Virus record (IMG/VR): IMGVR_UViG_3300027902_000010
Location: 1-61,447 of that record
Reading direction: 5' to 3' (one strand)
DNA length: 61,447 nucleotides
DNA from: a virus
Taxonomy: Duplodnaviria > Caudoviricetes
Shown: positions 1,946-28,383 of the stretch, piece after piece
How the letters are laid out: each line of letters begins with the position of its first letter
How positions within the stretch are numbered: the stretch's first letter is position 1
Program-made: the position numbers and the translations under genes
Notes under the pieces: generated by a model
Databases searched by the model: none
What the model saw: the letters and a program-made list of their open reading frames with translations, nothing else
What the model was told of the DNA's origin: nothing

Positions 1946-3076
1946 CTACCTCTCTTTATTCATTTTCAATGCTACTAACCCCGCTACTGAAGCCAATACG
2001 ATAGCTATCGGCCAAATGTAGGGACTCCCCAAAATGGAGGCTTCTGCGGGTGGAACCCCAGGAGTAGCAGTCGCTGGCGGCTTCTTCCCTAGCAATCCAA
2101 CTTTTCCAGCTATGTCAACTCCCTTAGCAGCCACACCAATTCCACTCGCAATTTCCTCAGCTGTAAGCCCACCACCAGCTTCACCTGGAATAGCCCCACC
2201 CACATCTGGCATAAGATAAGCATTATCTGGATTCATGATACCGCCAGGGGCGTTAGCAGCTTCTTGTATCTGCGCTACTTGCTGTGGCGTAGCTCCAGCA
2301 TCCATCATTTGAGATGGCGTCATTCCAGTACCGGGAATTTCTGTATAAGCATTCGCAATCACCGCCTGAATATCGGCATTTGAAGCTCCAGCCGCTGCCA
2401 TCTCTCCCGCTGTCATGCCGGTACCAGGTATCGTGCCAACATTTGGCATGAGAGCAGCGTTCGCCACAAATCCACCTGGGGCGTTAGCCGCTGCTACAAT
2501 CTCAGCCACTTGTTGTGGTGTCGCTCCCGCTGCCAGCATTTGAGCTTGTGTCATTCCAGTCCCTGGAACATTAGCTCCCGGACCTACTAGAGTTGAAACA
2601 TATCCAGCGGCAGCGCCCGCTATCAATCCTTTGAGAACATCAGGTCTACCCTTCTGTAATGAGCCAGCTATCGCGCCTGCTACCGTTCCGTATGGAAATC
2701 CACCGGTAAGAGTTCCAGCGATGGCCCCAGTAGTTGACTTTTGCAATAGCTGATGACCGCCAAGATCATATCTATGGCCACCAATTGTTATTTTAGGCAT
2801 CACCTTCGCGATAGGCTTAACAAATGGTTTTAATATCAATGGCTGAATGACGTACTTCTCGAGTTGCTTAGCCGCCGTCGCCAAAGGCTTACCTATACCT
2901 TTAGAGCCAATCGTAGGTCGAATGACATGCTTTTCAACCTGAGCCAGGGTGTGGGTAATTGGTTTAACTACGGGCCTTATAACAGCTCGTTCAACCTGAC
3001 CTCCGACCTTTTTTATTGGAGCCATTAACTTACTCCAAAAGTCGCCATATCCATCATAGTAATGATACATACTCAC
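1946..3076 (-). CDS. Putative virion membrane/entry protein
   Basis: YDGYG N-terminus, amphipathic QVE..VIRP repeats, 3x PGTGMT..M.AGA repeats, C-terminal TM. Confidence 0.6.
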   Translation of the reverse strand: MSMYHYYDGYGDFWSKLMAPIKKVGGQVERAVIRPVVKPITHTLAQVEKHVIRPTIGSKGIGKPLATAAKQLEKYVIQPLILKPFVKPIAKVMPKITIGGHRYDLGGHQLLQKSTTGAIAGTLTGGFPYGTVAGAIAGSLQKGRPDVLKGLIAGAAAGYVSTLVGPGANVPGTGMTQAQMLAAGATPQQVAEIVAAANAPGGFVANAALMPNVGTIPGTGMTAGEMAAAGASNADIQAVIANAYTEIPGTGMTPSQMMDAGATPQQVAQIQEAANAPGGIMNPDNAYLMPDVGGAIPGEAGGGLTAEEIASGIGVAAKGVDIAGKVGLLGKKPPATATPGVPPAEASILGSPYIWPIAIVLASVAGLVALKMNKER

Positions 3077-3077
3077 C

Positions 3078-3284
3078 TCACTTATACGGATTCGTATCTC
3101 GAAGTGAATACAGCAAAGCTTTCACTTCCGGCACTTCTGGATGACCTGGCCCCTGGGCTTCTACGTTTTTTATTATTCCATCATAGTCAATGGCGACATT
3201 GTTCTTCTGAGCCGCTCTTACCATTGTTATGATGTTATTGATTGTGGCTACCTTGTCAGGGTCTTCTCCATATCCGATAAACAT
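3078..3284 (-). CDS. Small protein with N-terminal FIGYG motif
   Basis: 68-aa ORF with GGAGG SD. Confidence 0.65.
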   Translation of the reverse strand: MFIGYGEDPDKVATINNIITMVRAAQKNNVAIDYDGIIKNVEAQGPGHPEVPEVKALLYSLRDTNPYK

Positions 3285-3292
3285 ATTGCCTC

Positions 3293-3682
3293 CTACTTAC
3301 GGAAGAACAAGAAATAGGCCCCACCGACCAGCACGGCACCGCCGGCTATCCATACCCACATCGGAATACCTGTTGATGGTGGCACCGCACCCACTACAAC
3401 CGTCGGCTTATTTCTTGTCATGTACTGGGTGTATGCCGTTCCGAGTTTTGCCCCTGATGACAGAATGCTGTCAATCGTATCAACCACACTGCTATCATCA
3501 TCTGCCCCCATACCACTAAATCTGTCCGGGAATCCATTGAATCCGATTCTGTTTGGAAATGCGCCATATCCGCTATACATCATATCTCCGTTACCTCCTG
3601 GTATCATTTTTGAATATACAACTGGCCCACCGCGTAATGGTCTTGTTCCCGCATCTGTATTTACTATCATATTCTCCTCCAT
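3293..3682 (-). CDS. Putative virion membrane protein
   Basis: YSGYG and FSGMG motifs, C-terminal TM plus RK. Confidence 0.65.
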   Translation of the reverse strand: MEENMIVNTDAGTRPLRGGPVVYSKMIPGGNGDMMYSGYGAFPNRIGFNGFPDRFSGMGADDDSSVVDTIDSILSSGAKLGTAYTQYMTRNKPTVVVGAVPPSTGIPMWVWIAGGAVLVGGAYFLFFRK

Positions 3683-4872
3683 TCTTCCATGCCCTCGAAG
3701 TTTTCATTCCGGCTAAATGATCCGGGCTTATTAGCATTAAACGACGGAAGAGGAGCCTCAGATATTGGCATATCCAATCCGACAACACCTGATCGGCCAG
3801 GCTCCTCCTCCTCATCGGATTCTGGTTCTGGTTCTGACCACAATCTTAAATTAGTATCGCCATAGTTAAGTGGCTCACGACCTCTTGAAGTCTGCCATAT
3901 TGGTGAAAACCCAAAACCAGCCAACGGCACCGCAGCTGTAGGTAAGGTGGCTTTCGCCATAAAGTCAACAAAATCTTTTTCCTTATCGGTCAATGGTTGA
4001 CCTGCGGCTTTTCTATTTTTTATATCCAATAGCGTAGCCGCCACTTGCTGATCGAGTATATCTCCTTTGCTAACATCAACTGGCGCTGTCTGCATGGCCG
4101 ATGGGCCACCTTCAGATCCATCATCTGCTACAGTATCCTGCTGTGTTTGAATTGGACCACCACCACCTGAAGACCCACCTGGCATAGACTTTGTTACCCA
4201 TCTATCGCCTGACGCCTGAACTTGCGGAGTAACTCCCCAATCTACTGACGGCGGTGGAATATGTTGAACAGATTGTGACTGTGATGCCTGAGTCGCATAG
4301 CTGGCAATGATAGCATCATATTGCGCTTTTGAAATTGGGTTTCCGTTCTCATCAACATATTGATTACCGCCAGACGCTGCATACTCCGCACTCCGTCTAT
4401 CATATTCTTCTTTTGATATCGGGTTCCCTTTATCATCCGTGTACTGCACATTACCGCCGGCCGCTTGCTGCGCCATGATAGCATCATATTCGGCTTTTGA
4501 AATTACATTCCCATTCGCATCCTGATAAATAGGCGGTGCATCAGCCGACGTCTGTGTTACTGATGGCTTTTTAGCCATCAATCCCATAACCGGCTTCGCT
4601 ATAAGACTTAGACCACCTGTCGCCATGGCCATTCCTACTGCCCCAGCTTTTCCAACGGTTTGGGCTACAGGTCTTATCACCGACTTCTCAACCTGTCCCG
4701 CAGCCTTTACAATGGGCTTTGCCACAGCCCCTATTACTGGGGTTCTTACAACTTGCGCCACTACTTTGCTTACTGGCTTTGTTACTACCTTGACTGCTGA
4801 GCTTATGGCCTTTTTCAGACTCCAGCCAAACTCACCATAGCCGTCATATCCACCATCATCACCGACAAACAT
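3667..4872 (-). CDS. Putative virion entry/DNA-delivery protein
   Basis: YDGYG followed by an amphipathic helix, 3x Y.D..GN.ISK..YD repeats, LAGFG near the C-terminus. Confidence 0.6.
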   Translation of the reverse strand: MFVGDDGGYDGYGEFGWSLKKAISSAVKVVTKPVSKVVAQVVRTPVIGAVAKPIVKAAGQVEKSVIRPVAQTVGKAGAVGMAMATGGLSLIAKPVMGLMAKKPSVTQTSADAPPIYQDANGNVISKAEYDAIMAQQAAGGNVQYTDDKGNPISKEEYDRRSAEYAASGGNQYVDENGNPISKAQYDAIIASYATQASQSQSVQHIPPPSVDWGVTPQVQASGDRWVTKSMPGGSSGGGGPIQTQQDTVADDGSEGGPSAMQTAPVDVSKGDILDQQVAATLLDIKNRKAAGQPLTDKEKDFVDFMAKATLPTAAVPLAGFGFSPIWQTSRGREPLNYGDTNLRLWSEPEPESDEEEEPGRSGVVGLDMPISEAPLPSFNANKPGSFSRNENFEGMEEWRRI

Positions 4873-4874
4873 AG

Positions 4875-5815: not shown

Positions 5816-5816
5816 A

Positions 5817-6605
5817 TTACCTCCCTAGTCCCATAAGCATTCTCAATATCAGCCCAACCTGAGCAGGCGTCAATTGATATGTGGGGCTGTCTACTAATGT
5901 GAAGCTATCAATAATTCTAATTCGAATCTCATTCTTCAGCGAGTCAGACAATGTGATGCTATCACTCAAAGATATGTGAGCTGCTATAGCACTTGTCAAA
6001 AAGTCTGTCAGTGTAATAGCGTCAGCCTTGCTTATCGTAACTGACTTTGCCGTGGCGTCGGTCAATGTTATTGAGTCACTTCTTGAAGACCCTATAAGCT
6101 TTGCCACCGCATCAGACAATGTTATTGAATCAGCCAAGTTTGGCTTATCCATCATCGTGATAACGTCACTCAGCGTTACAGTATCCGCAAGAGAAAGCGG
6201 AATAATTCTTGCAAATAAATCTGTCAGCGTGATGCTATCACTTTTAGTTATTGCTATGGCCTTTGCCAAAGCATCGGTCAGTGTTATTGAATCAGCTTTA
6301 CTGAGTGATATAGTCTTACCCGTAATACTGTCGGTCAATGTTATTACATCAGCCAGACCCGGCTTTATTGACTTAGTAATAACCTCGGTCAATGTGAATG
6401 AGTCCGCAAAACTCGGTCGTGGCGAGTTTGATATGGACTCAGTAAGCGTTATACTATCTCCTGGCATCGACTTGGAAAACGCCATCGCTATAACATCGGA
6501 CAGAGTTATGCTATCTGATAAATTCAATGTCAATGGTACGGTACCGCCGCGCAATATTACATCATATGGATTGGCGGCACTTTGATATAGGATGACATCT
6601 GCCAT
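5817..6605 (-). CDS. Repeat-rich fibre/spike protein
   Basis: Tandem L(S/A)DSITL(T/S)D repeats with ~19-aa period. Confidence 0.6.
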   Translation of the reverse strand: MADVILYQSAANPYDVILRGGTVPLTLNLSDSITLSDVIAMAFSKSMPGDSITLTESISNSPRPSFADSFTLTEVITKSIKPGLADVITLTDSITGKTISLSKADSITLTDALAKAIAITKSDSITLTDLFARIIPLSLADTVTLSDVITMMDKPNLADSITLSDAVAKLIGSSRSDSITLTDATAKSVTISKADAITLTDFLTSAIAAHISLSDSITLSDSLKNEIRIRIIDSFTLVDSPTYQLTPAQVGLILRMLMGLGR

Positions 6606-6607
6606 TT

Positions 6608-11713: not shown

Positions 11714-12529
11714 TTATCCGAATATCTTTTCACCGATCAGATTGACGGATACGTTGTTCGTCGCACCGCTCAAATCTTGCATGGTGATGTTGATCACAGA
11801 TCCACGCTGCACCCATCTCGGCGCAGCTAAGACGTTCGGGAAAGCGCCACTTCCAAGAAGGTTATTATCATGAACGCCCGTATTCATCCACTGACGGTCA
11901 CGACCCATATCCTGAACAGTGATGAGCACCGCGCCAGTAGCCTGTCCAGTAATCTTCTTGCACACAAAATTACTGTCCTTGTCAGTAGAAATTGATACTG
12001 ACGCCGTCTGGTTCGCCGGAATCTGGTAAACTCCTTCAGGCTGAGAACTCGAACTCCGAGGTAGTGGATATACATACGTCACCTTGGTCGTTCCGGGCTT
12101 TTTCCATGGAGCAATGCCCGGCCTCAATTTCATGCCATGGAAAGTGAGATATATCGTCGGCGCGATGACCGCGTGCGTATTTGCCAACTCAACCGAGAAA
12201 GTTGTAGCCCGACGAATGATATAGCCAGTTGGCCATACATACGGTCTGAAGTCCTGCGCTCCAGAGTTGTCCAGATTTAGAGAACGACCAGCCACCGTTC
12301 TCAGGGGAGTGGCGGACTTCATAAGATACCGCCCCATTGTATCATCTTTGAACTTAATGAGGACGTCCGCATTGTCATTGGTGGAGAAATAGCTCGTCTT
12401 CAAAAACTGGAAGTCGGCGTCGCTATCAATCCGTATTTCCTGAGTTGTATACTGCATTCCAGAACCAACTGCCAATGCCGAAAACGTCGTGCTGTAGCAA
12501 AAATACTCACCCCATACCACATCTTCCAT
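11714..12529 (-). CDS. Tandem two-domain beta protein, putative jelly-roll capsid component
   Basis: Two homologous halves (IDSDADF..GR.LM..PY.WP..F.G.KL vs TDKDSNF..RQWMN..P.L..L.G.KI). Confidence 0.55.
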   Translation of the reverse strand: MEDVVWGEYFCYSTTFSALAVGSGMQYTTQEIRIDSDADFQFLKTSYFSTNDNADVLIKFKDDTMGRYLMKSATPLRTVAGRSLNLDNSGAQDFRPYVWPTGYIIRRATTFSVELANTHAVIAPTIYLTFHGMKLRPGIAPWKKPGTTKVTYVYPLPRSSSSQPEGVYQIPANQTASVSISTDKDSNFVCKKITGQATGAVLITVQDMGRDRQWMNTGVHDNNLLGSGAFPNVLAAPRWVQRGSVINITMQDLSGATNNVSVNLIGEKIFG

Positions 12530-13871: not shown

Positions 13872-14612
13872 CTAACCTGCGACATTGTAGGCATCGTGAT
13901 ATGACGGCATTTCACCGAAGCCTTCAAGAACAGGCGATGACATCTGCGGGAATGCTTCCAGTCCCGACAGACCGACGCTGCTCAGAACTGGAGCAAGCAG
14001 ATCGGTAACGATGATCGCAGCCGACCCAATGACAAAGCCGTCTGCCGCTGGCTTGCTGATGAACCTATCAATCATATAGCCGCCGCCGATGATTGTAGCA
14101 AGCTTCACGCCGTAGTCCGCGATACCTCCTGGCGCCATCCCCGCCAGCTTAGGAATGTATCGTACTGCAACTGCACCCGCGGCACCGCCGAGGATCATCG
14201 GGAAGTAGCCCATAAATGTTCCCATGGGATTCCGACGATATCTGCGAGCCGGGTTACGTCTGTGATGCCGTTTCCGGTTCCGATGATGGACCCGGCGCTT
14301 TCCGAACAGTTTCATGTGAGACCTCCTGGGGTTCAGACCAACCAACATACCTTCGGCACCGAACGGGTTACGGCTCGTCCGACGTCTTCGACGAGAAGGA
14401 TTGAGCTTATGACCCGGCCGTGCAATTCTCGCAGCGGAACTGGTAAACCAGTGTCCCTTGCGACTATATACTACAGGACGATGCCTTGTTCCCTCACCAC
14501 CGAGGGCTTTTGCGCTTGGGGGGCGCCAGTGCGTGGTTAGCACGCGACGCTTGCTTGAACGACGCAAGCGTTTGGGTGGATTGATCAAAAACGGTTCTGA
14601 TACTTTGGCCAT
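13872..14612 (-). CDS. Arg-rich NP-motif core/membrane protein
   Basis: Arg/His-rich N-half with six NP motifs, then about three hydrophobic helices and LEGFG. Confidence 0.6.
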   Translation of the reverse strand: MAKVSEPFLINPPKRLRRSSKRRVLTTHWRPPSAKALGGEGTRHRPVVYSRKGHWFTSSAARIARPGHKLNPSRRRRRTSRNPFGAEGMLVGLNPRRSHMKLFGKRRVHHRNRKRHHRRNPARRYRRNPMGTFMGYFPMILGGAAGAVAVRYIPKLAGMAPGGIADYGVKLATIIGGGYMIDRFISKPAADGFVIGSAAIIVTDLLAPVLSSVGLSGLEAFPQMSSPVLEGFGEMPSYHDAYNVAG

Positions 14613-15380: not shown

Positions 15381-16799
15381 TCACATTTTCTTGAATTTGT
15401 TCTTGATGAACTCCGCCTGCTTACCACTATCTTTATAAGCCTGCACAAACTTATCATCAATGATCGTCTCTCGACCGATGTGAGGAATTATGATATCAGA
15501 GTCACACCATATCTGCCATCCCTTCAGCCGAGCCTTAATACCGAAGCTAACGTCTTCACCCACACCTTCGCGCTCTCCTTTTAGATTGTAGCCGGTAGAC
15601 GTATCCCCATATTTGAACCATGGATAGTCAAGTGACTCAAAGACCTCACGCTTGACCAGGAGAAAGTAGCCGCCAGTTGCATCTACTTCAACCATACCCA
15701 TATTCAATACGTCGTATGGGTGAAGTGACTTCTCATCATGGTCTGCAAGAAAAACACATGGAGCATGGGGCTCGCCGCGCTGCCACGCAATACCAGCACA
15801 TATATCAACATCATGCTCGAGTAACCGTAAAGCGGCATCTCCATCGAACATTTGATCATCATCAATGAAAAGTACATGAGTGAAATCGGATTTCAACAGT
15901 GCCTTCACCATCTCATTTCTGTCTTCTGGATGACCACGAGCCACATGAAAAAATGGCTTCTGAACAGGCGTACCTTCCCACAACTTGAGCAATGATATCA
16001 CGTTTTGATAATGTATGTATTCAGTTCTTGTCAACAATCCAACCATCATCTTAATCGGCTCAGACGTAGTTACTCGAAGCATATTATCAATAGCGTCTTT
16101 TCCTATTCTCTCCTCAAGAATAAGACGCTGCTTCTCCTGGTACTCATGGAAAGCATCCGCCGAACCGAGCGTATCGATAAATCCTTTTTCACCTTCATGC
16201 TCTATCTTCACATCACGAGCAATCTTGAGCGTGAAGCCGAGTTGCAAGATACGATAGCAAAGTTCCAATTCCTCCTTATCGCCGAGACCGTATACCGCTG
16301 GAAGAACTTCACCCCATTTCTCCTTCACAGCACGGATAACATTCATATCAGCCAAAAAGAAGAGACCAAGTAGATATTTTACATCACAGTTGATAAACAT
16401 CTTTAAGTTGTATGACTGTGGCCCCATTGCAAATGAAATCATCGGACCTACTGCACCAACTTCTGGATCCTTGAATCTCCTCATCATATTCTCAAGCCAC
16501 TGCTTGCAAAACACTACGTCATTGTGACACGTCAAAGCATACGGCGTATCGCACATCGCATACCCTTTTTCAACAGCCGCGATATATCCAATATTCTCAG
16601 ACGTGTACTGATACTTCAGCTCGACGCCATGATCACGACAATACCACACCACCCATGATTCAGTATTGTCATCGCTCCCATTGTCAAAAAAGAGTACTTT
16701 GTACTTCGATGGATCAGTATGTTCAATCAAACTTTCAAATGCTTTCTCTGTCAACTTCTGTTGATTCCTGGCTACCATTATTATGGTTAGCTGTTTCAT
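15381..16799 (-). CDS. Two-domain glycosyltransferase (GT2 + GT-A-like)
   Basis: DNGSDD and HNDV in domain 1; LFIDDD and GEDVSF in domain 2. Confidence 0.9.
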   Translation of the reverse strand: MKQLTIIMVARNQQKLTEKAFESLIEHTDPSKYKVLFFDNGSDDNTESWVVWYCRDHGVELKYQYTSENIGYIAAVEKGYAMCDTPYALTCHNDVVFCKQWLENMMRRFKDPEVGAVGPMISFAMGPQSYNLKMFINCDVKYLLGLFFLADMNVIRAVKEKWGEVLPAVYGLGDKEELELCYRILQLGFTLKIARDVKIEHEGEKGFIDTLGSADAFHEYQEKQRLILEERIGKDAIDNMLRVTTSEPIKMMVGLLTRTEYIHYQNVISLLKLWEGTPVQKPFFHVARGHPEDRNEMVKALLKSDFTHVLFIDDDQMFDGDAALRLLEHDVDICAGIAWQRGEPHAPCVFLADHDEKSLHPYDVLNMGMVEVDATGGYFLLVKREVFESLDYPWFKYGDTSTGYNLKGEREGVGEDVSFGIKARLKGWQIWCDSDIIIPHIGRETIIDDKFVQAYKDSGKQAEFIKNKFKKM

Positions 16800-19586: not shown

Positions 19587-20150
19587 CTACTGGATTTGAA
19601 AAGTAATTGAACCAGCAACACCTGTATTTACAGTTGAGGCTGACCATGTTGCACTTATTACACCGCTTTTATATAAATATATATATTGATTAGTTCCAAA
19701 TACAGCCATCATCCCAAGTGACATAGTCGTAGTGTTGTCACCAGCCAAAAGTGGCATCATATTGTTTCCAGGTGAGGCTGCAACTTTACCAGCTGGTATT
19801 TTAATCATTAGTTGGGTATCTAATGACCCGCCAACAGTAGTACTCATTATACGAAAATTAACTGTCATCGTTTTACCACTAATGGTATATGAAAAATCCT
19901 GGATACTTCCACCATATACTGTCCATGTCATCGAGCCGCTTCCTGTGAAATCAGCTGCATTGAAAGGTACCGCTGTCCATGTGGGCGATGTTACAAAATT
20001 CGGCACACCGCTTACCGAAGTATATGGAAGACTTCCAGATGTCCCCGTAGCTAAGTCTACCTTACCGCCCGATACCGGACTTAAGCCTGAGCCATAGGCT
20101 GATGTAACTAGGGCAAGAATGAATATAAGTATCCACAAGATCTTTTTCAT
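19587..20150 (-). CDS. Signal-peptide beta-domain protein (receptor-binding-like), paralog A
   Basis: Signal peptide then SAYGSGLSPVSGG; fibre-head-like C-terminal domain. Confidence 0.6.
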   Translation of the reverse strand: MKKILWILIFILALVTSAYGSGLSPVSGGKVDLATGTSGSLPYTSVSGVPNFVTSPTWTAVPFNAADFTGSGSMTWTVYGGSIQDFSYTISGKTMTVNFRIMSTTVGGSLDTQLMIKIPAGKVAASPGNNMMPLLAGDNTTTMSLGMMAVFGTNQYIYLYKSGVISATWSASTVNTGVAGSITFQIQ

Positions 20151-20158: not shown

Positions 20159-20698
20159 CTATTGAATTGAAAATGTAAACGAACCAGACACACGAGTGTT
20201 TGAAGATGAAGCAGCCCAGTTATTAAAAACCCCTCCATCTTTATAACATTCTATATAATTTACAATTTGAAGTATAGCCGTTCCAAGTGCCATGGTTGAA
20301 CCATTATTATCACTAACTAAAATTGGAAGTCTATAATAAGTACTAGGTCTTTTACCAGCCGGTATTTTAATCCTCAATGCAGTATCTGGTGTTCCACCAA
20401 CAGACGTATTAGCTATTGAGAAGTTAATAGTCATCATATTACCAATAATTACATATTGAAATGTCTGAACATTCCCAGAGCTTACAGTCCACGTCATTGA
20501 GCCACTTCCAAAAAAATCACTAGCATTAAATGGAACACTAGTAAATTGTGGTCCACCACTTATTGATGAATATGGTAAAGACCCGGTTGTTCCGGTAGAT
20601 AAATCTATTTGACCACCGGATACTGGACTTAGTCCAGATCCGTATGCTGACGTCACTATAACCAAATAGAGTAATATTCCTAGAACAATCTTCTTCAT
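20159..20698 (-). CDS. Signal-peptide beta-domain protein, paralog B
   Basis: Aligns end-to-end with 19587-20150. Confidence 0.6.
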   Translation of the reverse strand: MKKIVLGILLYLVIVTSAYGSGLSPVSGGQIDLSTGTTGSLPYSSISGGPQFTSVPFNASDFFGSGSMTWTVSSGNVQTFQYVIIGNMMTINFSIANTSVGGTPDTALRIKIPAGKRPSTYYRLPILVSDNNGSTMALGTAILQIVNYIECYKDGGVFNNWAASSSNTRVSGSFTFSIQ

Positions 20699-21593: not shown

Positions 21594-22526
21594 TTACGCC
21601 CAGGATATCTTGAGACCCATAGCTTTTGCCGGCTTCAAGAATGCTCTCATCTTGCTCACCCCTTTGATTCGTCCCGTATACTTCTTCGCCGGATAGTCAA
21701 CAGTATAGGTACCTTTAGGACCTTCAGTGACATAGACATCAGCATCACCTACTAAGAATCCGCCACGAGTCAACTCGCCGGTCATCTTCTGTTTGTATCG
21801 CTTGATAGCCTGGTCACGCTCAGGCGCACTGATCAGCCCCTGTCGATAAGATAGATCAGCATTTATTTTTATTCCGTTTGGCGTTATGCCATCACGATCT
21901 TTTGGCAATCTCTTATGCTTTCTCCGAGTACGCCGAAATCTTTTATATGCCTGCTTTGTTTCTGGATCCATCGGATTCGAAAATGCTCCTCGAGTCGATT
22001 TACTGAAGTAATGGAAGAATTCTGGCTCGAGAAAGAACTCCTTCCCTGTATGTAGATTCTTTACAATGAAACCGGCACCACGCCTCTGTATGATTTCGAA
22101 CTTGTTCTGTATGCCCGAGCCGCCGGACATCAGCAATATATCACCGATCTTCCATCGTTCTGGGTTTTTTCTCAACTTCTTCTTTGGATTATCTCTTTCA
22201 AGATATCCGTTGATCTCATGCTCGGCATGCTCCTCAGCCTGCTCATACTTCGGAAATCCCCATGATGAGAATATATTCTTGTAGATACTTCGAATAAAAT
22301 ATCCCTTATTATGAGAGTACCAAATTTCATACGGTATTCCCATATACTCCTTATGAGCTTGGCGCTGCGGATTCGGCCGCATTGTAGAAGCTAACGCCCC
22401 CATTGGCATCTTTACGCCTTCAAGCAAATGATGATATTTCTTTATGAGACCTTTCTTCAAACCCTCAGGCGTCTTGTCGCTAAGTATAGCCGCTTTCACA
22501 GCAGCCAGGTTCATAGTCCGTGGCAT
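21594..22526 (-). CDS. Basic modular NP-motif protein
   Basis: RPNP, RDNP, RKNP and FSNP junctions; AAGGAGG SD favours ATG at 22526. Confidence 0.6.
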   Translation of the reverse strand: MPRTMNLAAVKAAILSDKTPEGLKKGLIKKYHHLLEGVKMPMGALASTMRPNPQRQAHKEYMGIPYEIWYSHNKGYFIRSIYKNIFSSWGFPKYEQAEEHAEHEINGYLERDNPKKKLRKNPERWKIGDILLMSGGSGIQNKFEIIQRRGAGFIVKNLHTGKEFFLEPEFFHYFSKSTRGAFSNPMDPETKQAYKRFRRTRRKHKRLPKDRDGITPNGIKINADLSYRQGLISAPERDQAIKRYKQKMTGELTRGGFLVGDADVYVTEGPKGTYTVDYPAKKYTGRIKGVSKMRAFLKPAKAMGLKISWA

Positions 22527-22542
22527 GACAGCCTCCTTATTC

Positions 22543-22833
22543 CTAATACTGATACCCATAAGGTATCGGTTCTATATCTCTCGCCGTCGGATCACCAATA
22601 TACGAGTACTCATTAATAGCCCGAGCAAGCGCTAACGTCTTCGCCTTATTGAAGCCGGTGATTCTGATGGCTACATGACCTTGATATGGAGTATGATCTG
22701 GCTTAACATCATAACCATGACCAAACTCATCAGCCAGATGCTTCTTGAACATCTTTCGCAAGGCAGCTGGGGACATACTCCACGAATCTTTCCAGTCCGA
22801 CCACGCATAGAAATATTGTCGCTGTGCCATCAC
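22543..22833 (-). CDS. Small hypothetical protein
   Basis: ORF with GGAGG SD. Confidence 0.6.
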   Translation of the reverse strand: MMAQRQYFYAWSDWKDSWSMSPAALRKMFKKHLADEFGHGYDVKPDHTPYQGHVAIRITGFNKAKTLALARAINEYSYIGDPTARDIEPIPYGYQY

Positions 22834-23235: not shown

Positions 23236-23634
23236 TCACCTCTTCTTCGTCATGAAGTATATTCCTAAGCCAACCACCGCAACAATGGCGGCTCCAATTC
23301 CTACATTCTCCGCGGTCACGATAGAAGGAGCGGCATGACCAGCCAAGTTATTTACCGCATCAACTTGAGTCTTCACCTTGACAAGAAATAACCCAATCTT
23401 TCCGTAGTCAGCGATGCTAACGTCTTCACCGCTATTGAGTTGATCATTCACATCGCTGAGCTCTGCTTCCAATGCCGTCTGCTGATCGATCAACGACGCA
23501 ACTTGCGCTTTCACTGCCGGGTCTGACGAAGTAGCCAACTGATTCAAGGTATTACGACACATTAGCAACTGGCCAATAAGCGCTTGTGCCTTTGCCTTCA
23601 GATCACTCAGTACTGTTCCAAAACCTCGTAACAT
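23236..23634 (-). CDS. Coiled-coil protein with C-terminal TM
   Basis: MLRGFG start, helical body, TM plus KKR. Confidence 0.65.
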   Translation of the reverse strand: MLRGFGTVLSDLKAKAQALIGQLLMCRNTLNQLATSSDPAVKAQVASLIDQQTALEAELSDVNDQLNSGEDVSIADYGKIGLFLVKVKTQVDAVNNLAGHAAPSIVTAENVGIGAAIVAVVGLGIYFMTKKR

Positions 23635-23643
23635 TGTCGCCTC

Positions 23644-23862: not shown

Positions 23863-23871
23863 GATCTCCCC

Positions 23872-24480
23872 CTACTTGACCATCGACGCTTCAGCCAGAT
23901 GATTGATGAGACCTCTCTCTTCGTCGCTCAGCCGATATCCGGCAGCAAGCTTTGATTTGACTTGATGAAGCGCAGCCATCACCGCAGCGTCAGCATCGGT
24001 CATCACGGAAGCTCCAAGTAGCGTTTCACCAGTAGCCTCGTCATCGCCATATGACTGCACTACACGAGGACCTCCCATCGCCGGAACGACAGGCAACACT
24101 GGAGAAATTCTTGGAAATGCGCCATACGCCACAACTGGAACTGGCTCAGGCATAGGGTTCACACCCATACCGCGCATAGCATAGAGCGGCTGAGCAGTGT
24201 TCATGGCGGGCTTCGGCACACTTCCCTGCGGTCCGCCGTAAATAGGTCTGCCAATCTGACTACCAGAAGCTTTATACGATCCACCTCTTTTTCCTGGATG
24301 ACTTTTTCTCATAGGCTGACCACTTCTCCTTGGCTCAGCCCTTCTCGGCCACATCGGAGTTGGCTTTACCGGCGCAGGTGGTCTGGCTTGCTGCGCAGCT
24401 GAAGCAACCTTCTGTCCCATTGTCGTTAACGCTCTTGATGGATTTACTGGTCTCATAAATCCAAAATTTTCATCTTCCAT
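23872..24480 (-). CDS. Pro-rich putative virion protein
   Basis: MRGMG, AYGAFP and NP motifs; C-terminal helix shared with 3667-4872. Confidence 0.55.
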   Translation of the reverse strand: MEDENFGFMRPVNPSRALTTMGQKVASAAQQARPPAPVKPTPMWPRRAEPRRSGQPMRKSHPGKRGGSYKASGSQIGRPIYGGPQGSVPKPAMNTAQPLYAMRGMGVNPMPEPVPVVAYGAFPRISPVLPVVPAMGGPRVVQSYGDDEATGETLLGASVMTDADAAVMAALHQVKSKLAAGYRLSDEERGLINHLAEASMVK

Positions 24481-24489
24481 AATATCCTC

Positions 24490-24696
24490 CTATGACACAT
24501 GCGCTAGTAAGCGCTTTAGAATAGTAACGTGATCTCTCTCATCAGAAGCAATCCGTCGTATTGATTGACGAATGCTATCAAACTCGGTCGTCGCTGGCAA
24601 AGCTTTTATCAACTTGGCATAGGCGATGATGCCTTCTTCTTCTTCTCGGATAAACTTACCCAATTCCCGTTTGTATGTTCCTAAGCTAGTAATCAT
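24490..24696 (-). CDS. Ferritin/rubrerythrin-like helical hairpin
   Basis: EEEEG..AY and DERDH (ExxH) pattern. Confidence 0.5.
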   Translation of the reverse strand: MITSLGTYKRELGKFIREEEEGIIAYAKLIKALPATTEFDSIRQSIRRIASDERDHVTILKRLLAHVS

Positions 24697-25382
24697 TTCC
24701 GTCTCCTCTTATAGTGATAAGGATTTTTCCGGAACGGAACATGTCCGCTGCTCCCACTGGAATAGATATATAGTGCTAAGCCTCCGATACCTACTATTCC
24801 TAAGATAATTGGAAGTCCGAGACCGCTCGTAACACCTTTGAAGGCAGAGCCAACTACTTGACCTGCTCCTTGCGCTACTGAACCTACAACCTTTCCGGTA
24901 GCCTGCATCGTTCCCTCGGCTACGTTCTCAATCTCCGCAGCAGCTCCACCAGCCTGAGATGAAGTGGCACCTTCATCTATTGACACATACGCGGCTGCAC
25001 CATATCCCATCGTGCGCCACAGGTTATTGAATATTTCAACCCAATTCCCCAGCGTCATAGATACTGATGGAACAAAGGTAATAGCAAATCGTCCAGAAAA
25101 TAATGGACGCTCAACCTTTACAATGGTCGCGTCAGTTATGTACTGACGAAACTGAGTTGCAATATCATCTTGCGACGGCTGGAACCAAGCACCGCTAGAA
25201 TAGGTGATTGTATATTCATTCCCAGAAGCCAACATCGTTCCTTGCTCGATAACGCCAAATCCAGCAAAGCCAGAAAATCTATCAGCTCCTCGAACCTTAT
25301 ATCTGTTTTCCTTGATAGCAGTAGATGGCCGATGATAATTTTCATCTCTTACATGTGGCCACATGGGATTATGCTGTCTCAT
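24693..25382 (-). CDS. Putative virion membrane protein
   Basis: FAGFG motif, Gly/Ala repeats, C-terminal TM then RKNP and basic tail. Confidence 0.6.
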   Translation of the reverse strand: MRQHNPMWPHVRDENYHRPSTAIKENRYKVRGADRFSGFAGFGVIEQGTMLASGNEYTITYSSGAWFQPSQDDIATQFRQYITDATIVKVERPLFSGRFAITFVPSVSMTLGNWVEIFNNLWRTMGYGAAAYVSIDEGATSSQAGGAAAEIENVAEGTMQATGKVVGSVAQGAGQVVGSAFKGVTSGLGLPIILGIVGIGGLALYIYSSGSSGHVPFRKNPYHYKRRRK

Positions 25383-25397
25383 ATCATCTCCATATTC

Positions 25398-25757: not shown

Positions 25758-25833
25758 GGCTACCTCGTATCAAGTCGATCTCTTTGCTCTTTCTCTTTTT
25801 GCTTCTTCTCTTGTTTATGCCGATTCTTCTCTT

Positions 25834-26262
25834 TTATGGTAGTGTGGTGAGGATGCCCGGGCTTTTGGGTTTCTTCCCGGTGTCGACGAAAAAATTTGTA
25901 CCGGTCTTGAGCAATGCAATCTCGTTGCTATTGGCTGATTGGGTGCCAAATCCGTTCTTATCGTAAGCGGTGCAATAGTAGAGAGCATCTGCCTTTGTTC
26001 CTAAAGTATTCGATATTGAAATTGTCGTTGTCACCACCGCCGCTGATGTCACAGTAGAAGTTGGCGATGAGATGAGATACGGACCGCCTATTGTCGTGCC
26101 ACATGTTACGGTGTAGGTCACGGGAAAATCAATGGCTGAGCCATCCGTGTTTGTCGTCGCCGTCTGCATTGAGAACAGCGATGCTGGATCAGCTTGCGCG
26201 GTAGCTACAAAGCCGATCACGAGCATAAGTACTATTCCTATTACTGCAATCATCTTTTTCAT
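25834..26262 (-). CDS. Secreted Thr-rich FN3/Ig-like protein
   Basis: Signal peptide (AQA), TNTDGS, YYCTAYD..G..S..SNE pattern. Confidence 0.6.
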   Translation of the reverse strand: MKKMIAVIGIVLMLVIGFVATAQADPASLFSMQTATTNTDGSAIDFPVTYTVTCGTTIGGPYLISSPTSTVTSAAVVTTTISISNTLGTKADALYYCTAYDKNGFGTQSANSNEIALLKTGTNFFVDTGKKPKSPGILTTLP

Positions 26263-26290
26263 TTCCTTCTCCTCCTTATGGGTTATGTTT

Positions 26291-26389
26291 CTACTCTCCT
26301 CGATACCAGAACTTGTCTACAATTTTGACGATGACATAAGCTACAGCAACTATTCCTAAGATCACAAGCGTGAATGTATCTTTATCCAT
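26291..26389 (-). CDS. 32-aa single-TM peptide
   Basis: MDKDTFTLVILGIVAVAYVIVK..., GGAGG SD. Confidence 0.55.
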   Translation of the reverse strand: MDKDTFTLVILGIVAVAYVIVKIVDKFWYRGE

Positions 26390-26397
26390 CTAACCTC

Positions 26398-26739
26398 CTA
26401 TGACTTGCAGTGTGCGCCATCTGGAGCCAACGGATCCAGAAGATTTGCTCAGAGCCAGATTGCCATCTTGCCACGCCAGGTATCAGGCAAGTGAAATTTA
26501 TATTTCTCAAGACGACCGGTTGTCAGCCAACGATCAGGCAGCTCGAGAAAGATGAGTGTGCATAATGTATAATTGAGCAAAGCATCAAGCACGACAAACA
26601 AGGCGAGCCATGGATAGCCAAATATCTTTGGCCATGTTCCTAAGGTCCCCGCCATCTTCGCTCGCAAGAGAGCCATCATGAGACCATAGCCACCCCAGAC
26701 ACACCAGATGAACAGTAAAGAATACAATAAATATTTCAT
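26398..26739 (-). CDS. Membrane protein with in-frame UGA (26449-26451); selenoprotein candidate or nonsense allele
   Basis: ...AIWL-UGA-ANLLDPLAPDGAHCKS-UAG; the UAG is fused to the next SD; a hairpin follows the UGA. Confidence 0.6.
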
Positions 26740-27110
26740 GTCGGCTCCTTCTGTACAGGTTTTGATCTCTGTCGCTTGATCGCAGGCATTACAAGGAATA
26801 CAAATATTCCTATTCCCACAGCCGCGTAAATGACATATTTCCACATTCCAGAAGTACTGCTCGATACTGGAATAGATGGCGCTGGCAGCATTGGCGTGGT
26901 GGCCTGCTTTTCCATAGCCGCTGCAAACTCATAATCTTCGAGAGGTATATCGAGCTGCTGACCAACCTGAATGAGATTAGGGTCTGCTATTCTATTCTGA
27001 TTCGCAATCGTTTGCACACTGACACCGTACTTAGCAGCTATTGCGCCCAGCGTATCACCAGGCTGGACCGTATATGATTCCCAATTCAACTCTCCGTATG
27101 ATGCGAACAT
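26736..27110 (-). CDS. LysM protein with C-terminal TM
   Basis: YTVQPGDTLGAIA...NLIQVGQQLDIP followed by TM. Confidence 0.92.
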   Translation of the reverse strand: MFASYGELNWESYTVQPGDTLGAIAAKYGVSVQTIANQNRIADPNLIQVGQQLDIPLEDYEFAAAMEKQATTPMLPAPSIPVSSSTSGMWKYVIYAAVGIGIFVFLVMPAIKRQRSKPVQKEPT

Positions 27111-27114
27111 GGTA

Positions 27115-27354
27115 TTACCTCATAACTGGTGGCCACGTTTCAAACTCTACTTCTTCAACATTCTTTCCAAGCCATTTGTTGTCAGCATGCAGACCTTGTG
27201 TCACATTATACAAAACAAAATCTCCAAGATTTGAACGAGCTGCGATGGTATATGAATTACCCATCCACAAAGACTTCGTCTTCACTTTCTTGATCTTACG
27301 ACCGGTGTATTTCTCTATAATCCACTTAGCCGCAGTGTTTCCAGTGAATGGCAT
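27115..27354 (-). CDS. Small hypothetical protein
   Basis: 79-aa ORF with GGAGG SD. Confidence 0.6.
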   Translation of the reverse strand: MPFTGNTAAKWIIEKYTGRKIKKVKTKSLWMGNSYTIAARSNLGDFVLYNVTQGLHADNKWLGKNVEEVEFETWPPVMR

Positions 27355-27362
27355 GATGCCTC

Positions 27363-27641
27363 CTACTTAGGTAATATCTTCAACAACAGCTTGGTGATTT
27401 CAATCAAGTCCTTCTTGTAGATCACATTCTGCAAATGGACATTGTAGTAGCGTTCACGCTGGTTAACATAGATCGATCCCTTATCACCAATTAGATGTCG
27501 CTTTTCAAAAGGGGTGTACCGCTTCTTACCGATATCAATACGAGAGTAATGTGGAACATCGACCAACTCAAAGTTCTTTGATTCGGCCAATATGTTCTCA
27601 TCGTATTCATATCCACGTCGTCTTCTCATTCTGGCCATCAT
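27363..27641 (-). CDS. Small basic hypothetical protein
   Basis: MMARMRRRRG..., ATGA overlap. Confidence 0.6.
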   Translation of the reverse strand: MMARMRRRRGYEYDENILAESKNFELVDVPHYSRIDIGKKRYTPFEKRHLIGDKGSIYVNQRERYYNVHLQNVIYKKDLIEITKLLLKILPK

Positions 27642-27847
27642 CGCCTCCTGCTAACACGACGTCTTCGTGGATTCAACTTGTAATATTTTTTGGCGCCGTC
27701 GATTTGCATAACATCTACAAAGCCAAACCCCTCTTCTTGGAGTAGTTCCTCAATCTTCTCTTCCAATTCTTGAATAGCATCTGTTCCTAAGTTCTCTGGC
27801 TTGTCTGTGTCTGGATTCATGAGCGTTACAAGAAATTGCGCTTTCAT
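27638..27847 (-). CDS. Small protein ending KLNPRRRRVSRRR
   Basis: 69-aa ORF, NP followed by Arg tail. Confidence 0.6.
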   Translation of the reverse strand: MKAQFLVTLMNPDTDKPENLGTDAIQELEEKIEELLQEEGFGFVDVMQIDGAKKYYKLNPRRRRVSRRR

Positions 27848-28383
27848 CTGTCCACCTCGTAATCATAGAGTGTTGTATAAGTCGGATTTTCCCATCCGAC
27901 GTAAGCACCTTCTTTGATCTCATCAACAGGCAGCCACTGACCATAGATATATACAAGACCATAGACGTGACCGAGCTGCTTATTTGGCTTATACGACGCC
28001 GCTCGCAACTTTACTCGAAAGCCTATGCTCTTGAGGAGCGACAATGACAGAATCGTCATATCATCGCAATCACCTTGCCACAGCACGCCTTTGCGCCAAT
28101 ACTCGAGAGCAACAAGTGGTGACTGGAGCATCTCTACATTGCTCGGGTCCTTTATATATCGAGAGTGATTCTGAACGAAGTGATAGATGGCATCAGCCTC
28201 ACCCCATTCATCCTTTTGCGGTATTCCTTCAACAATCTTCGCGGCCCAGTCTCGAACGAGCGGATTCTTTCCAGATTGGCGTATCGCCGAGGCCATGAGT
28301 TCGAGCGTATTATTGTTGACCGCATCATCTCCAAATCCAAGATTCACATATTTGACAGATTGATCACTCAGTCCTCGAAACAT
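27844..28383 (-). CDS. Transglutaminase-like (papain-fold) cysteine enzyme
   Basis: GDCDD (Cys), GHVY (His) and WLPVD (Asp) triad. Confidence 0.85.
   Translation of the reverse strand: MFRGLSDQSVKYVNLGFGDDAVNNNTLELMASAIRQSGKNPLVRDWAAKIVEGIPQKDEWGEADAIYHFVQNHSRYIKDPSNVEMLQSPLVALEYWRKGVLWQGDCDDMTILSLSLLKSIGFRVKLRAASYKPNKQLGHVYGLVYIYGQWLPVDEIKEGAYVGWENPTYTTLYDYEVDR

What the first reader, a model, noticed from the sequence alone, without database searches (positions are those of the whole stretch)
1946..28383. Shared hydrophobic-x-G-hydrophobic-G motif across about ten unrelated virion proteins, plus a papain-fold enzyme: candidate maturation/sorting system
Seen: YDGYG (1946-3076; 3667-4872), FIGYG (3078-3284), YSGYG and FSGMG (3293-3682), LAGFG (3667-4872), LEGFG (13872-14612), LRGFG (23236-23634), MRGMG (23872-24480), FAGFG (24693-25382), and variants FASYG (LysM protein) and NLGFG (27844-28383 itself). 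The motif is usually near a terminus and often followed by D/E. Known: adenovirus protease cleaves (M/I/L)xGX/G. The only intact Cys-His-Asp enzyme I found is the transglutaminase-like ORF 27844-28383. Inference: it processes or cross-links these substrates, an adenovirus-like maturation logic in a bacterial virus using a different protease family. Alternatively the motif is a capsid-docking tag.
Basis: partly seen in the sequence, partly recalled or inferred. Interest (0 to 1): 0.85.

Follow-up and report, generated by a model that had tools for sequence, protein, structure and literature searches.

The report
Shared terminal motif in virus structural proteins
An undescribed bacterial virus carries the same short glycine-aromatic tag on the flexible ends of many unrelated structural proteins, probably to dock them into the particle, and possibly to be cut there by a protease-like enzyme.

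Summary
[FYLM]xG[FYM]G occurs 10 times in 8 of 60 left-arm ORFs against 1.4 expected, and never in the right arm. An unbiased pattern scan shows this count alone is not family-wise significant (58 of 200 shuffles).

Conservation is the real evidence. G-[FYM]-G is kept at 18 of 23 aligned sites in close orthologues. It is invariant in the 3667-4872 and 3293-3682 families.

The pentamer is the left half of a longer motif, hydrophobic-x-G-hydrophobic-G-[ADE]-hydrophobic-P. Its core, hydrophobic-G-A-[FYM]-P, stands in two or more tandem copies in the C-terminal tail of 36 of 39 homologues of 13872-14612.

ORF 27844-28383 is a transglutaminase-fold enzyme with an invariant Cys-His-Asp. Its nearest solved structures are LapG-type proteases, and its homologue in Salisaeta phage SSIP-1 is annotated as a structural protein.

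Nothing links the enzyme to the motif. Three distant relatives keep the enzyme without motif enrichment. I favour a docking or incorporation tag (0.4); cleavage by the enzyme remains open (about 0.27).

The parts
3044..3058 (-). YDGYG, residues 7-11 of ORF 1946-3076 (376 aa, C-terminal hydrophobic anchor)
   Evidence: Kept as MDGFG / YDGFG in 2 of 2 close orthologues.
3267..3281 (-). FIGYG, residues 2-6 of ORF 3078-3284 (68 aa)
   Evidence: AGGAGG lies 4 nt upstream of the ATG. The single orthologue has FVQFG, so the site is not kept.
3506..3577 (-). Three tandem motif copies in ORF 3293-3682 (129 aa, tail-anchored): YSGYG-AFP, GFNGFP, FSGMG-ADD
   Evidence: In the 10-sequence alignment A4, G34, P39 and G53 are invariant and G-hydrophobic-G is present in 9 of 10 sequences at each outer copy.
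4834..4848 (-). YDGYG, residues 9-13 of ORF 3667-4872 (401 aa)
   Evidence: G-hydrophobic-G is present in 4 of the 5 sequences (window included) that have an N-terminus. The N-terminal 107 aa are paralogous to 1946-3076.
3910..3924 (-). LAGFG, residues 317-321 of ORF 3667-4872, at the start of its conserved C-terminal module
   Evidence: G319, F320, G321, P324 and W326 are invariant in 6 sequences of 34-47% identity.
13872..14612 (-). Core bipolar protein (246 aa): arginine-rich N-terminal half, hydrophobic middle, acidic aromatic C-tail with LEAFP and LEGFG-EMP (LEGFG at 13914-13928)
   Evidence: 44 homologues in the loci, 39 of them unique. All 39 have A[FYM]P in the last 60 aa and 36 of 39 have two or more copies. 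Density is 37.6 per 1000 aa in the tails against 0.2 in the rest.
23617..23631 (-). LRGFG, residues 2-6 of ORF 23236-23634 (132 aa, tail-anchored)
   Evidence: ML[RK]GFG in 3 of 3 close orthologues. AGGAGG lies upstream of the ATG.
24163..24177 (-). MRGMG, residues 102-106 of ORF 23872-24480 (202 aa), followed by AYGAFP
   Evidence: Not kept at the aligned site in the one orthologue, which has MHGFG elsewhere.
25254..25268 (-). FAGFG, residues 39-43 of ORF 24693-25382 (229 aa, tail-anchored), just before its conserved domain
   Evidence: Distant orthologues have GLGYLG, GLGDLA or GVGDFG at the same boundary.
26736..27110 (-). LysM protein (124 aa) starting MFASYGE (variant motif at 27093-27107)
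   Evidence: Pfam LysM E 1.6e-18. A GAGG motif lies upstream of the ATG.
27844..28383 (-). Transglutaminase-fold Cys-His-Asp enzyme (179 aa; C106, H139, D154). NLGFG at 28330-28344 lies in a low-confidence N-terminal segment.
   Evidence: Pfam Transglut_core E 5.3e-8, above the cut-off. The triad is invariant in 12 sequences. AF2 mean pLDDT 82.9, with residues 1-9 and 14-21 under 50. Foldseek top hits are 3isr and LapG.
11714..12529 (-). Candidate capsid protein with two jelly-roll-like domains (271 aa), used to define the virus clade; conserved internal GSGAFPN
   Evidence: 53 homologues. AF2 pLDDT 93.7. Best single-domain match is the HHIV-2 capsid, Z 8.7. PM2 P2 is at Foldseek rank 42, E 2.3e-4. 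GA[FY]P is present in 12 of 76 family members.

Best explanation
The pentamer is the left half of a longer short linear motif: hydrophobic-x-G-[FYM]-G-[A/D/E]-hydrophobic-P, with the clade-wide core hydrophobic-G-A-[FYM]-P. It sits in flexible N-terminal arms and C-terminal tails of at least seven unrelated left-arm proteins. Five of the eight carriers have a C-terminal hydrophobic anchor. The virus belongs to an undescribed clade of linear, inverted-terminal-repeat viruses with a candidate jelly-roll capsid protein and bacterial-type ribosome-binding sites.

I read the motif as a common docking or incorporation tag. A hook, often in two or three tandem copies, would tether membrane-anchored and small soluble proteins to one shared partner in the particle, most plausibly the inner face of the capsid lattice.

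Shown: the motif exists, is enriched, is positionally conserved and turns over between lineages. Inferred: the partner, the docking role, and virion residence.

The transglutaminase-fold enzyme is a conserved enzyme of the protease-like branch. It may trim the tags after docking (dock, then cut), but that step is not shown.
For: Enrichment. 10 observed against 1.44 expected in the left arm; 0 in the right arm. The result is robust to local-composition shuffles.

Conservation.
- G-[FYM]-G is kept at 18 of 23 aligned close-orthologue sites, inside proteins whose overall class identity is 0.31-0.66.
- G319/F320/G321/P324/W326 are invariant in 6 sequences of 34-47% identity.
- G34/P39/G53 are invariant in 10 sequences.

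Long footprint. Among 33 unique sites in the window plus close relatives, Pro at +3 occurs in 13, position +1 is A/D/E in 19, and position +2 is F/M/I in 18.

Multivalency.
- Three tandem copies in 3293-3682.
- 36 of 39 unique homologues of 13872-14612 have two or more A[FYM]P copies in the last 60 aa. Copies are spaced mostly 7-10 or 14-19 residues apart. The residue at -2 is hydrophobic or Ala in 87 of 87 copies. The tails hold 1% K+R and 13% D+E.

Position.
- Three proteins start M-hydrophobic-x-[GS]-hydrophobic-G right after a strong Shine-Dalgarno site. One of them is a LysM protein that would need a signal to enter a particle.
- In distant relatives the motif density in the first 30 residues is 1.57 per 1000 aa against 0.91 in protein interiors: 41 hits in 24 families.

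Turnover typical of linear motifs. Close relatives have non-orthologous new sites. Distant ones use L/V/I at position -1.

Membrane context. 5 of 8 carriers have a C-terminal hydrophobic segment, by a crude hydropathy scan.
Against: - No binding partner is identified and no structure or binding test supports docking.
- Virion residence of the carriers is unproven.
- The window-only enrichment is not family-wise significant (58 of 200 shuffles).
- In the three long distant genomes the motif is not clearly enriched in the structural arm. Broad pattern: 12 against 6.7 (18 of 500), 2 against 4.5, and 5 against 3.3. Strict pattern: 2, 0 and 1 hits.
- In the distant loci the strict pattern is only 37 against 26.1, and GxG in general is enriched there.
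- Two window sites are not kept in their single orthologue and one has no aligned orthologue residue.
- Recurrent consensus motifs in viral structural proteins are most often protease sites, and a conserved protease-like enzyme is present. Tandem closely spaced sites also occur in protease substrates.
Confidence: 0.4

Rival explanations
1. Reader's main reading. The motifs are cleavage sites of the transglutaminase-fold cysteine protease 27844-28383. It would cut after hydrophobic-G (P2 hydrophobic, P1 Gly, P1' A/D/E) during particle maturation. The logic is adenovirus-like but uses a different protease family.
For: - Intact, invariant Cys106/His139/Asp154 and Pfam Transglut_core above the cut-off.
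- Nearest solved structures are a putative cysteine protease (3isr, E 8.4e-6) and LapG (E 7.6e-5 to 1.6e-4), ahead of true transglutaminases. The profile search of PDB sequences hits the LapG-type chain 4u65_E weakly (E 0.03).
- LapG cuts its substrate between two small residues in an N-terminal region (PMC10990149 passages).
- The enzyme is a core gene: homologues in 15 loci and in 3 of 3 long relatives.
- Inteins sit at the catalytic Cys in L004 and L068, and 8 of the top 47 database representatives are intein-sized.
- The SSIP-1 homologue gp34 is annotated as a structural protein.
- A bulky hydrophobic residue before the Gly fits the usual S2 preference of papain-fold enzymes (general knowledge).
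- 4 of 10 sites fit (M/I/L)XGX-G (PMC3386624 passage).
- Motifs lie at boundaries between variable linkers and conserved modules.
Against: - No result links enzyme and motif.
- G001-G003 keep the enzyme without motif enrichment.
- Cutting at residue 6 of small soluble proteins has no obvious purpose.
- The Gly before Ala is present in only 43 of 87 tail copies.
- The enzyme's own N-terminal motif is not an autoprocessing signature: the wider family has G-D-x-[AG]-I-x-x-T there.
- No maturation protease is known to me in prokaryotic membrane-containing jelly-roll viruses (recalled; my searches found none).
Confidence: 0.27
2. The enzyme has nothing to do with the motif. It is a particle-borne or lysis-stage cell-wall endopeptidase, or another papain-fold hydrolase, working alongside the SLT transglycosylase and the LysM protein.
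For: - The left arm holds an SLT domain protein with a C-terminal anchor (1398-1943, Pfam SLT E 3.4e-23) and a LysM protein.
- A transglutaminase-fold cell-wall enzyme, the pseudomurein endoisopeptidase PeiP, is among the Foldseek matches (rank 42, E 1.5e-2).
- SSIP-1 gp34 and the G002 homologue carry a C-terminal membrane anchor, as particle-borne entry enzymes can.
Against: LapG and 3isr rank far above PeiP. No cell-wall-binding domain is fused to the enzyme. There is no Pfam hit to NlpC/P60 or CHAP.
Confidence: 0.25
3. The motif is recognised by something other than a particle partner or the viral enzyme. Candidates are a host protease, chaperone or insertase, or it is a structural turn element of glycine-rich disordered segments with no common reader.
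For: GxG in general is mildly over-represented in the structural arms of relatives (1570 against 1353.4). The carriers are glycine-rich and partly low-complexity. The reverse control pattern G[FYM]Gx[FYLM] is also enriched in close relatives (15 against 4.3).
Against: Block shuffles that keep local composition still give 10 against about 1.7. Specific flanking positions (-4, +1 to +3) are constrained. The reverse control overlaps the same sites, because position +2 is hydrophobic.
Confidence: 0.1
4. Chance: a pattern picked after the fact, with no function.
For: Family-wise, 58 of 200 shuffles give some gapped 5-mer as extreme as FxGFG. There is no clear enrichment in G001-G003.
Against: Positional conservation in orthologues of 34-67% identity, with invariant motif columns. 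Tail motif copies are present in 39 of 39 homologues of 13872-14612.
Confidence: 0.05

Closest known systems
Adenovirus protease (adenain, AVP) and its (M/I/L)XGX-G / (M/I/L)XGG-X sites in proteins IIIa, VI, VII, VIII, mu and TP
   Same: One short Gly-containing consensus with a hydrophobic residue four positions upstream, shared by many unrelated structural and core proteins (PMC3386624 passage). A very basic core-like protein is among the carriers. A cysteine hydrolase is encoded with the structural genes. Recalled, from no call: the cleaved N-terminal peptides of adenovirus pVI and pVII also dock in the hexon cavity, so docking and cutting coincide there.
   Different: The enzyme here is transglutaminase/LapG-like with catalytic order Cys-His-Asp. 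It is not adenain: there is no Pfam Peptidase_C5 hit. Only 4 of 10 sites fit the adenoviral consensus literally. Cleavage is not shown. The host is bacterial.
LapG / BTLCP (bacterial transglutaminase-like cysteine proteinases)
   Same: Nearest solved fold and nearest PDB sequence hit. Cys-His-Asp triad. LapG cuts between two small residues (Ala-Ala) in a flexible N-terminal part of its substrate (PMC10990149 passages).
   Different: LapG is periplasmic, calcium-dependent, regulated by LapD and acts on one giant adhesin. The viral enzyme has no signal peptide in its sequence, gave no BTLCP family hit in Pfam or NCBIfam, and its similarity is weak (TM 0.46-0.55; HMM E 0.03).
[quoted passage not shown]
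   Same: The only homologue in 50,697 phage records (28% identity over 117 aa, E 2e-6). Transglut_core E 8.9e-7. The Cys, His and Asp contexts are kept. It is annotated 'structural protein'. SSIP-1 is a membrane-containing icosahedral phage with PRD1-adenovirus type architecture and two capsid protein types (PMC6356626 passages).
   Different: gp34 is 304 aa with a C-terminal anchor. No other window protein matches the 24-kb SSIP-1 region at a meaningful level. Of the 15 SSIP-1 ORFs checked, the motif pattern was found only in gp34 and ORF 35, one hit each. The SSIP-1 genome is circular and 43.8 kb. The original SSIP-1 paper could not be read.
Terminal targeting peptides: phage T4 capsid-targeting sequence (later cut by gp21) and encapsulin cargo-loading peptides (both recalled, from no call)
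   Same: A short conserved peptide at the extreme end of otherwise unrelated proteins directs them to the inside of a protein shell.
   Different: Different shells (HK97 fold) and different motifs. Tandem copies and membrane-anchored carriers are not typical there.

Membership tests
Transglutaminase-like superfamily (Pfam PF01841, papain-like clan) | Profile match above the curated cut-off | tested here: met
   E 5.3e-8, 33.5 bits against a cut-off of 23.
Transglutaminase-like superfamily (Pfam PF01841, papain-like clan) | Cys-His-Asp triad in that order, conserved | tested here: met
   C106, H139 and D154 are invariant in 12 sequences of 35-45% identity. They are also kept in the 15 locus homologues and in SSIP-1 gp34.
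Transglutaminase-like superfamily (Pfam PF01841, papain-like clan) | Fold | tested here: met
   AF2 model with pLDDT 82.9. The Foldseek list holds 3isr, LapG, TglA, Rad4/XPC, PNGase and transglutaminases 2 and 3.
BTLCP / LapG family | Family-level profile match | tested here: not met
   No such family among the Pfam hits at E 0.01 or below and no NCBIfam hit. Only a weak hit to the PDB sequence 4u65_E, E 0.03.
BTLCP / LapG family | Export signal (periplasmic enzyme) | tested here: not met
   The N-terminus MFRGLSDQSVKY has no hydrophobic stretch. The hydropathy scan finds no segment.
BTLCP / LapG family | Calcium site and proteolytic activity | not testable with these tools
   Needs coordinates or biochemistry.
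Adenain (peptidase C5, clan CE) | Profile match and His-Glu/Asp-Cys order of catalytic residues | tested here: not met
   No Peptidase_C5 hit. The order here is Cys-His-Asp. The adenain residue order is recalled.
Adenovirus-type cleavage consensus (M/I/L)XGX-G | M, I or L four residues before the second Gly | tested here: inconclusive
   4 of 10 strict sites (LAGFG, LEGFG, LRGFG, MRGMG) fit. The other 6 have F or Y there. Consensus from the PMC3386624 passage.
Double jelly-roll capsid viruses (PRD1-adenovirus lineage) | Major capsid protein with two jelly-roll domains | tested here: inconclusive
   The model has two beta-sandwich domains, 10-136 and 143-271. Best single-domain hits are capsid proteins of HHIV-2 (Z 8.7), STIV A223, HCIV-1 and P23-77. 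PM2 P2 appears only at Foldseek rank 42 with TM 0.24. BFVD hits are mixed, with TM 0.33 or less.
Double jelly-roll capsid viruses (PRD1-adenovirus lineage) | FtsK/HerA-type packaging ATPase next to the capsid genes | tested here: inconclusive
   No Walker A motif in any left-arm ORF. Three right-arm proteins carry one, and none was classified as a packaging ATPase.

The most novel reading that the evidence does not exclude
This clade of bacterial, membrane-protein-rich viruses with a candidate jelly-roll capsid uses an adenovirus-like 'dock, then cut' maturation that evolved independently. The hydrophobic-G-A-hydrophobic-P tags on a basic core protein, on tail-anchored membrane proteins and on small cargo proteins would bind the capsid underside. 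A particle-borne LapG-like transglutaminase-fold cysteine protease would then cut after hydrophobic-Gly to release them. That would be the first maturation protease in a prokaryotic virus of this architecture, and a new protease family for virion maturation.
Probability: 0.22. Interest if true: 0.8.

Novelty: new variant of a known kind. Interest (0 to 1): 0.6.

Why it matters
Shared terminal signals are how complex particles sort and mature their parts. Known examples are adenovirus protease sites, the T4 capsid-targeting sequence and encapsulin cargo peptides. No such signal, and no maturation protease, is known to me for prokaryotic membrane-containing icosahedral viruses, and my literature searches found none.

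Here a defined eight-residue motif, a set of about seven carrier families and one conserved candidate enzyme are laid out. They sit in a virus clade that appears undescribed: 53 capsid-protein homologues and 102 metagenome loci. That makes the question directly testable with peptides and recombinant proteins, without a cultured host. The tag could also serve to predict the particle proteins of related uncultured viruses.

Tried and rejected
Searches that found nothing or little.
- Megablast of 10 kb of the left arm against 50,697 phage records: no match.
- PHROGs on 10 proteins: nothing for 9. Only the glycosyltransferase 15381-16799 matched.
- Single-protein scans of viral contigs: none for 11714-12529. 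One weak 5.7-kb contig for the enzyme, without shared neighbours.

Pfam coverage. I scanned 49 of my 60 left-arm ORFs plus the LysM ORF. The only peptidase-type hit above a cut-off is Transglut_core. A sub-threshold Peptidase_S48 hit on 5817-6605 (17.2 bits against a cut-off of 27) was discarded. Eleven small ORFs were not scanned.

Complex prediction. I submitted the enzyme (residues 19-179, alignment A2) with the N-terminal 60 residues of the 1946-3076 / 3667-4872 module (alignment A3). The result was no verdict, score 0.00, and controls were not run. This counts neither for nor against binding.

Autoprocessing at the enzyme's own NLGFG. I considered this because G16 and G18 are invariant in 12 sequences and lie in a segment with pLDDT under 50. 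I rejected it as specific evidence. Among 150 database representatives, [LIVMF]GxG is present in 49 of the top 80 and in 12 of the next 70. The wider family has G-D-x-[AG]-I-x-x-T there, which is a helix N-cap.

Other readings set aside.
- Covariation between the enzyme's motif and the class of the -1 residue in other sites of the same genome: none seen by eye.
- True transglutaminase cross-linking: the motif has no conserved Gln or Lys.
- Prepilin-type, sortase- or exosortase-type sorting signals, a glycosylation sequon, and a target of the three radical SAM/SPASM enzymes: all considered from memory and set aside. The radical SAM genes are absent from G001-G003 and match only generic families.

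Structure libraries. The BFVD search with the capsid-protein model gave only low-TM mixed beta-sandwich hits.

Whole-genome test in distant relatives G001-G003: no clear enrichment. Reported in full above as evidence against.

Paper supplements were not consulted. The SSIP-1 paper and its protein identifications, which could bear on gp34 processing, could not be read.

Full report
What the window is. The window is a whole record of 61,447 bases with perfect 99-nt inverted terminal repeats. Two arms are transcribed away from an AT-rich palindromic region near 31.1-31.3 kb.

The right arm holds replication genes: family A DNA polymerase, an MCM-like P-loop protein, an SNF2 helicase, a UDG fusion, a C5 methylase, a ligase and a PD-(D/E)XK nuclease. 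It also holds three radical SAM/SPASM proteins.

The left arm (minus strand, about 100-30,829) is almost entirely orphan. PHROGs gave nothing for 9 of 10 proteins. Pfam on 49 of 60 ORFs plus the LysM ORF gave only two GT2 glycosyltransferases, a methyltransferase, an SLT transglycosylase, a LysM domain and Transglut_core. Strong Shine-Dalgarno sites, SLT and LysM point to a bacterial host.

The observation. [FYLM]xG[FYM]G occurs 10 times in 8 of 60 left-arm ORFs against 1.44 expected from per-protein shuffles (0 of 2000). It does not occur in the 50 right-arm ORFs, where 0.76 is expected. Shuffling within 15-40-residue blocks, which keeps local composition, leaves 1.6-1.8 expected (0 of 2000).

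The pattern was chosen after the fact, however. I scanned all reduced-alphabet gapped 5-mers. In that scan, 58 of 200 shuffled proteomes contained some pattern as extreme as FxGFG (8 against 1.0). The window alone therefore does not prove the motif.

Relatives. ORF 11714-12529 has 53 homologues of 34-80% identity in the protein collection. A profile scan found 3 IMG/VR loci and 102 metagenome loci, of which 80 were kept. One IMG/VR record (G001, 70,516 bases) has 71-nt inverted terminal repeats. It is collinear with the window in both arms. This is a real, apparently undescribed virus clade. The literature searches found no description of it.

Conservation. In close relatives (capsid-protein identity 68-80%) the motif is kept at the same place while the flanks drift:
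- ML[RK]GFG at residue 2 of the 23236-23634 family;
- [YM]DG[YF]GD[FI]W in the 1946-3076 family;
- [LM][AS]GFG[FI]SP[IM]W in the 3667-4872 family;
- [LFMY][EA]G[FYM]G in the tail of the 13872-14612 family.

G-[FYM]-G is retained at 18 of 23 aligned orthologue sites. Eight of the 10 motif windows score above their protein's mean (0.6-1.0 against means of 0.35-0.66). One site has no aligned orthologue residue, and two are lost in their single orthologue.

Wider searches added more orthologues. In six sequences of 34-47% identity, G319, F320, G321, P324 and W326 are invariant. In ten sequences of the 3293-3682 family, G34, P39 and G53 are invariant, and three tandem copies are kept. Close relatives also carry new, non-orthologous sites. 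That is the turnover expected of a short linear motif. The strict pattern is 23 against 4.4 expected in 158 unique proteins of close relatives.

Thirty-three unique sites give hydrophobic(-4), [SADKE](-3), G, [FYM], G, [ADE](+1), [FMI](+2), P(+3). Pro at +3 is found in 13 of 33.

The right half, hydrophobic-G-A-[FYM]-P, is the clade-wide element. GA[FY]P occurs 81 times in plus-strand locus ORFs against 6.0 expected. Counted over locus and window proteins together, 67 copies fall in the 13872-14612 family. All 39 unique homologues of that protein have A[FYM]P in their last 60 residues. Thirty-six have two or more copies. Density is 37.6 per 1000 aa in the tails against 0.2 in the rest. Spacing clusters at 7-10 and 14-19 residues, and position -2 is hydrophobic or Ala in 87 of 87 copies. 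That protein is bipolar: 25% K+R in its first 100 residues, and 1% K+R with 13% D+E in its tail.

Limits. In distant relatives the strict pattern is weak (37 against 26.1). The broad pattern is 223 against 152.8, with GxG itself over-represented. In distant relatives the -1 residue is mostly L, V or I. In the three long distant genomes the structural arm is not clearly enriched: 12 against 6.7, 2 against 4.5 and 5 against 3.3. The heavy use of the pentamer is a feature of the window's subclade. The tail motif of 13872-14612 is clade-wide.

The enzyme.
- ORF 27844-28383 matches Transglut_core above its cut-off.
- C106, H139 and D154 are invariant in 12 sequences.
- The AF2 model (pLDDT 82.9) is closest to a putative cysteine protease (3isr) and to LapG. 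True transglutaminases, PNGase, Rad4 and PeiP rank lower.
- A profile search of PDB sequences gives only weak hits, the best being a LapG-type chain (E 0.03). LapG is a transglutaminase-like cysteine protease that cuts LapA at an Ala-Ala pair (PMC10990149 passages).
- The enzyme is a core gene: 15 loci and 3 of 3 long relatives.
- Inteins interrupt it at the catalytic Cys in L004 and L068. Eight of the top 47 database representatives are intein-sized with two matched stretches. That fits a catalytically important site.
- Its only homologue among deposited phages is SSIP-1 gp34, annotated as a structural protein of a membrane-containing icosahedral phage.
- Its own NLGFG is better read as a family-intrinsic helix N-cap.

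Capsid context. The 271-aa protein 11714-12529 models with high confidence as two beta-sandwich domains. The best single-domain matches include capsid proteins of internal-membrane viruses (HHIV-2 at Z 8.7, STIV, HCIV-1, P23-77). PM2 P2 appears at Foldseek rank 42. Whole-chain TM-scores are low and BFVD is uninformative. A double jelly-roll capsid protein is therefore likely but not shown. Five of the eight motif carriers have a C-terminal hydrophobic segment. No left-arm ORF has a Walker A motif.

Mechanism. Two readings survive, and they are not exclusive.

I favour a docking or incorporation tag (0.4), for four reasons:
- the copies are tandem and multivalent;
- the footprint spans eight residues;
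- three proteins, one a LysM protein, carry the tag at residues 2-6 of the primary product;
- the clade-wide instance sits on a tail that could bridge a membrane-embedded, DNA-facing protein to the shell.

Cleavage by the enzyme (0.27) is favoured by three points: the usual meaning of recurrent consensus motifs in viral structural proteins, the protease-like affinities and core status of the enzyme, and the hydrophobic-then-Gly pattern that suits a papain-fold S2 pocket. In adenovirus the docking peptides of pVI and pVII are also protease substrates (recalled). A combined dock-then-cut scheme is the boldest reading still open (0.22).

No result here links enzyme and motif. The one complex prediction gave no verdict.

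Noticed in passing
window 1-99 and 61349-61447; G001 (L086-L089): The record is a complete-looking linear genome with perfect 99-nt inverted terminal repeats. The collinear 70.5-kb relative G001 has 71-nt ones. The clade (53 capsid-protein homologues, 102 metagenome loci) combines these ends with a family A polymerase and an MCM-like protein. It matched nothing in my literature searches.
   Followed up: partly
left arm of the window; structural arms of G001-G003: The dipeptide Asn-Pro is about twofold over-represented in the structural arms: 41 against 19.3, 37 against 17.9, 20 against 11.5 and 26 against 10.0. It is not in the two replication arms tested (window 18 against 13.7; G001 13 against 13.0). 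[KR]xNP is 10 against 2.0 in the window's left arm, for example RRNP twice in 13872-14612 and RKNP in 21594-22559 and 24693-25382. This is a second shared motif of unknown meaning.
   Followed up: partly
L004:1773-3302 and L068:1769-3298; P0057, P0058, P0062, P0068, P0071, P0076, P0079, P0100: Inteins (Intein_splicing plus LAGLIDADG in P0057) are inserted exactly at the catalytic Cys of the transglutaminase-fold enzyme in several relatives.
   Followed up: partly
window 37645-43752 (+): Three radical SAM/SPASM genes (37645-38547, 40012-41037, 41427-42500) are interleaved with small ORFs and followed by a transketolase-like N-terminal fragment (42967-43752). They match only generic families and are absent from G001-G003.
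   Followed up: partly
window 31057-31297: An AT-rich block of nested inverted repeats and palindromes lies between the two divergent arms. It is a candidate divergent promoter region or replication element.
   Followed up: no
window 57236-57991 (+): An ORF with long Asp/Glu runs interrupted by Lys-rich blocks, built of imperfect 96-nt repeats (family D1). Its homologue in G001 is 39% identical.
   Followed up: no
window 5817-6605 (-): A 262-aa protein built of about ten 'DSITLTD'-like repeats. It looks fibre- or spike-like. No homologue was found in the fetched loci.
   Followed up: no
window 19587-20150 and 20159-20698 (-): Two adjacent paralogous proteins with near-identical signal-peptide-like N-termini. 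No homologue was found in the fetched loci. They are candidate host-recognition proteins.
   Followed up: no
window 38660-38687 and 38937-38964: An exact 28-nt direct repeat 277 nt apart in the right arm (family D5).
   Followed up: no
window 3076 region: ORF 1946-3076 is listed with a GTG start. An ATG two codons downstream, preceded by GTGAGG, may be the true start. Likewise, all ten aligned sequences of 3293-3682 share MIVNTD, and eight begin with it. The window's own database entry begins there too, so its start is probably four codons downstream.
   Followed up: partly
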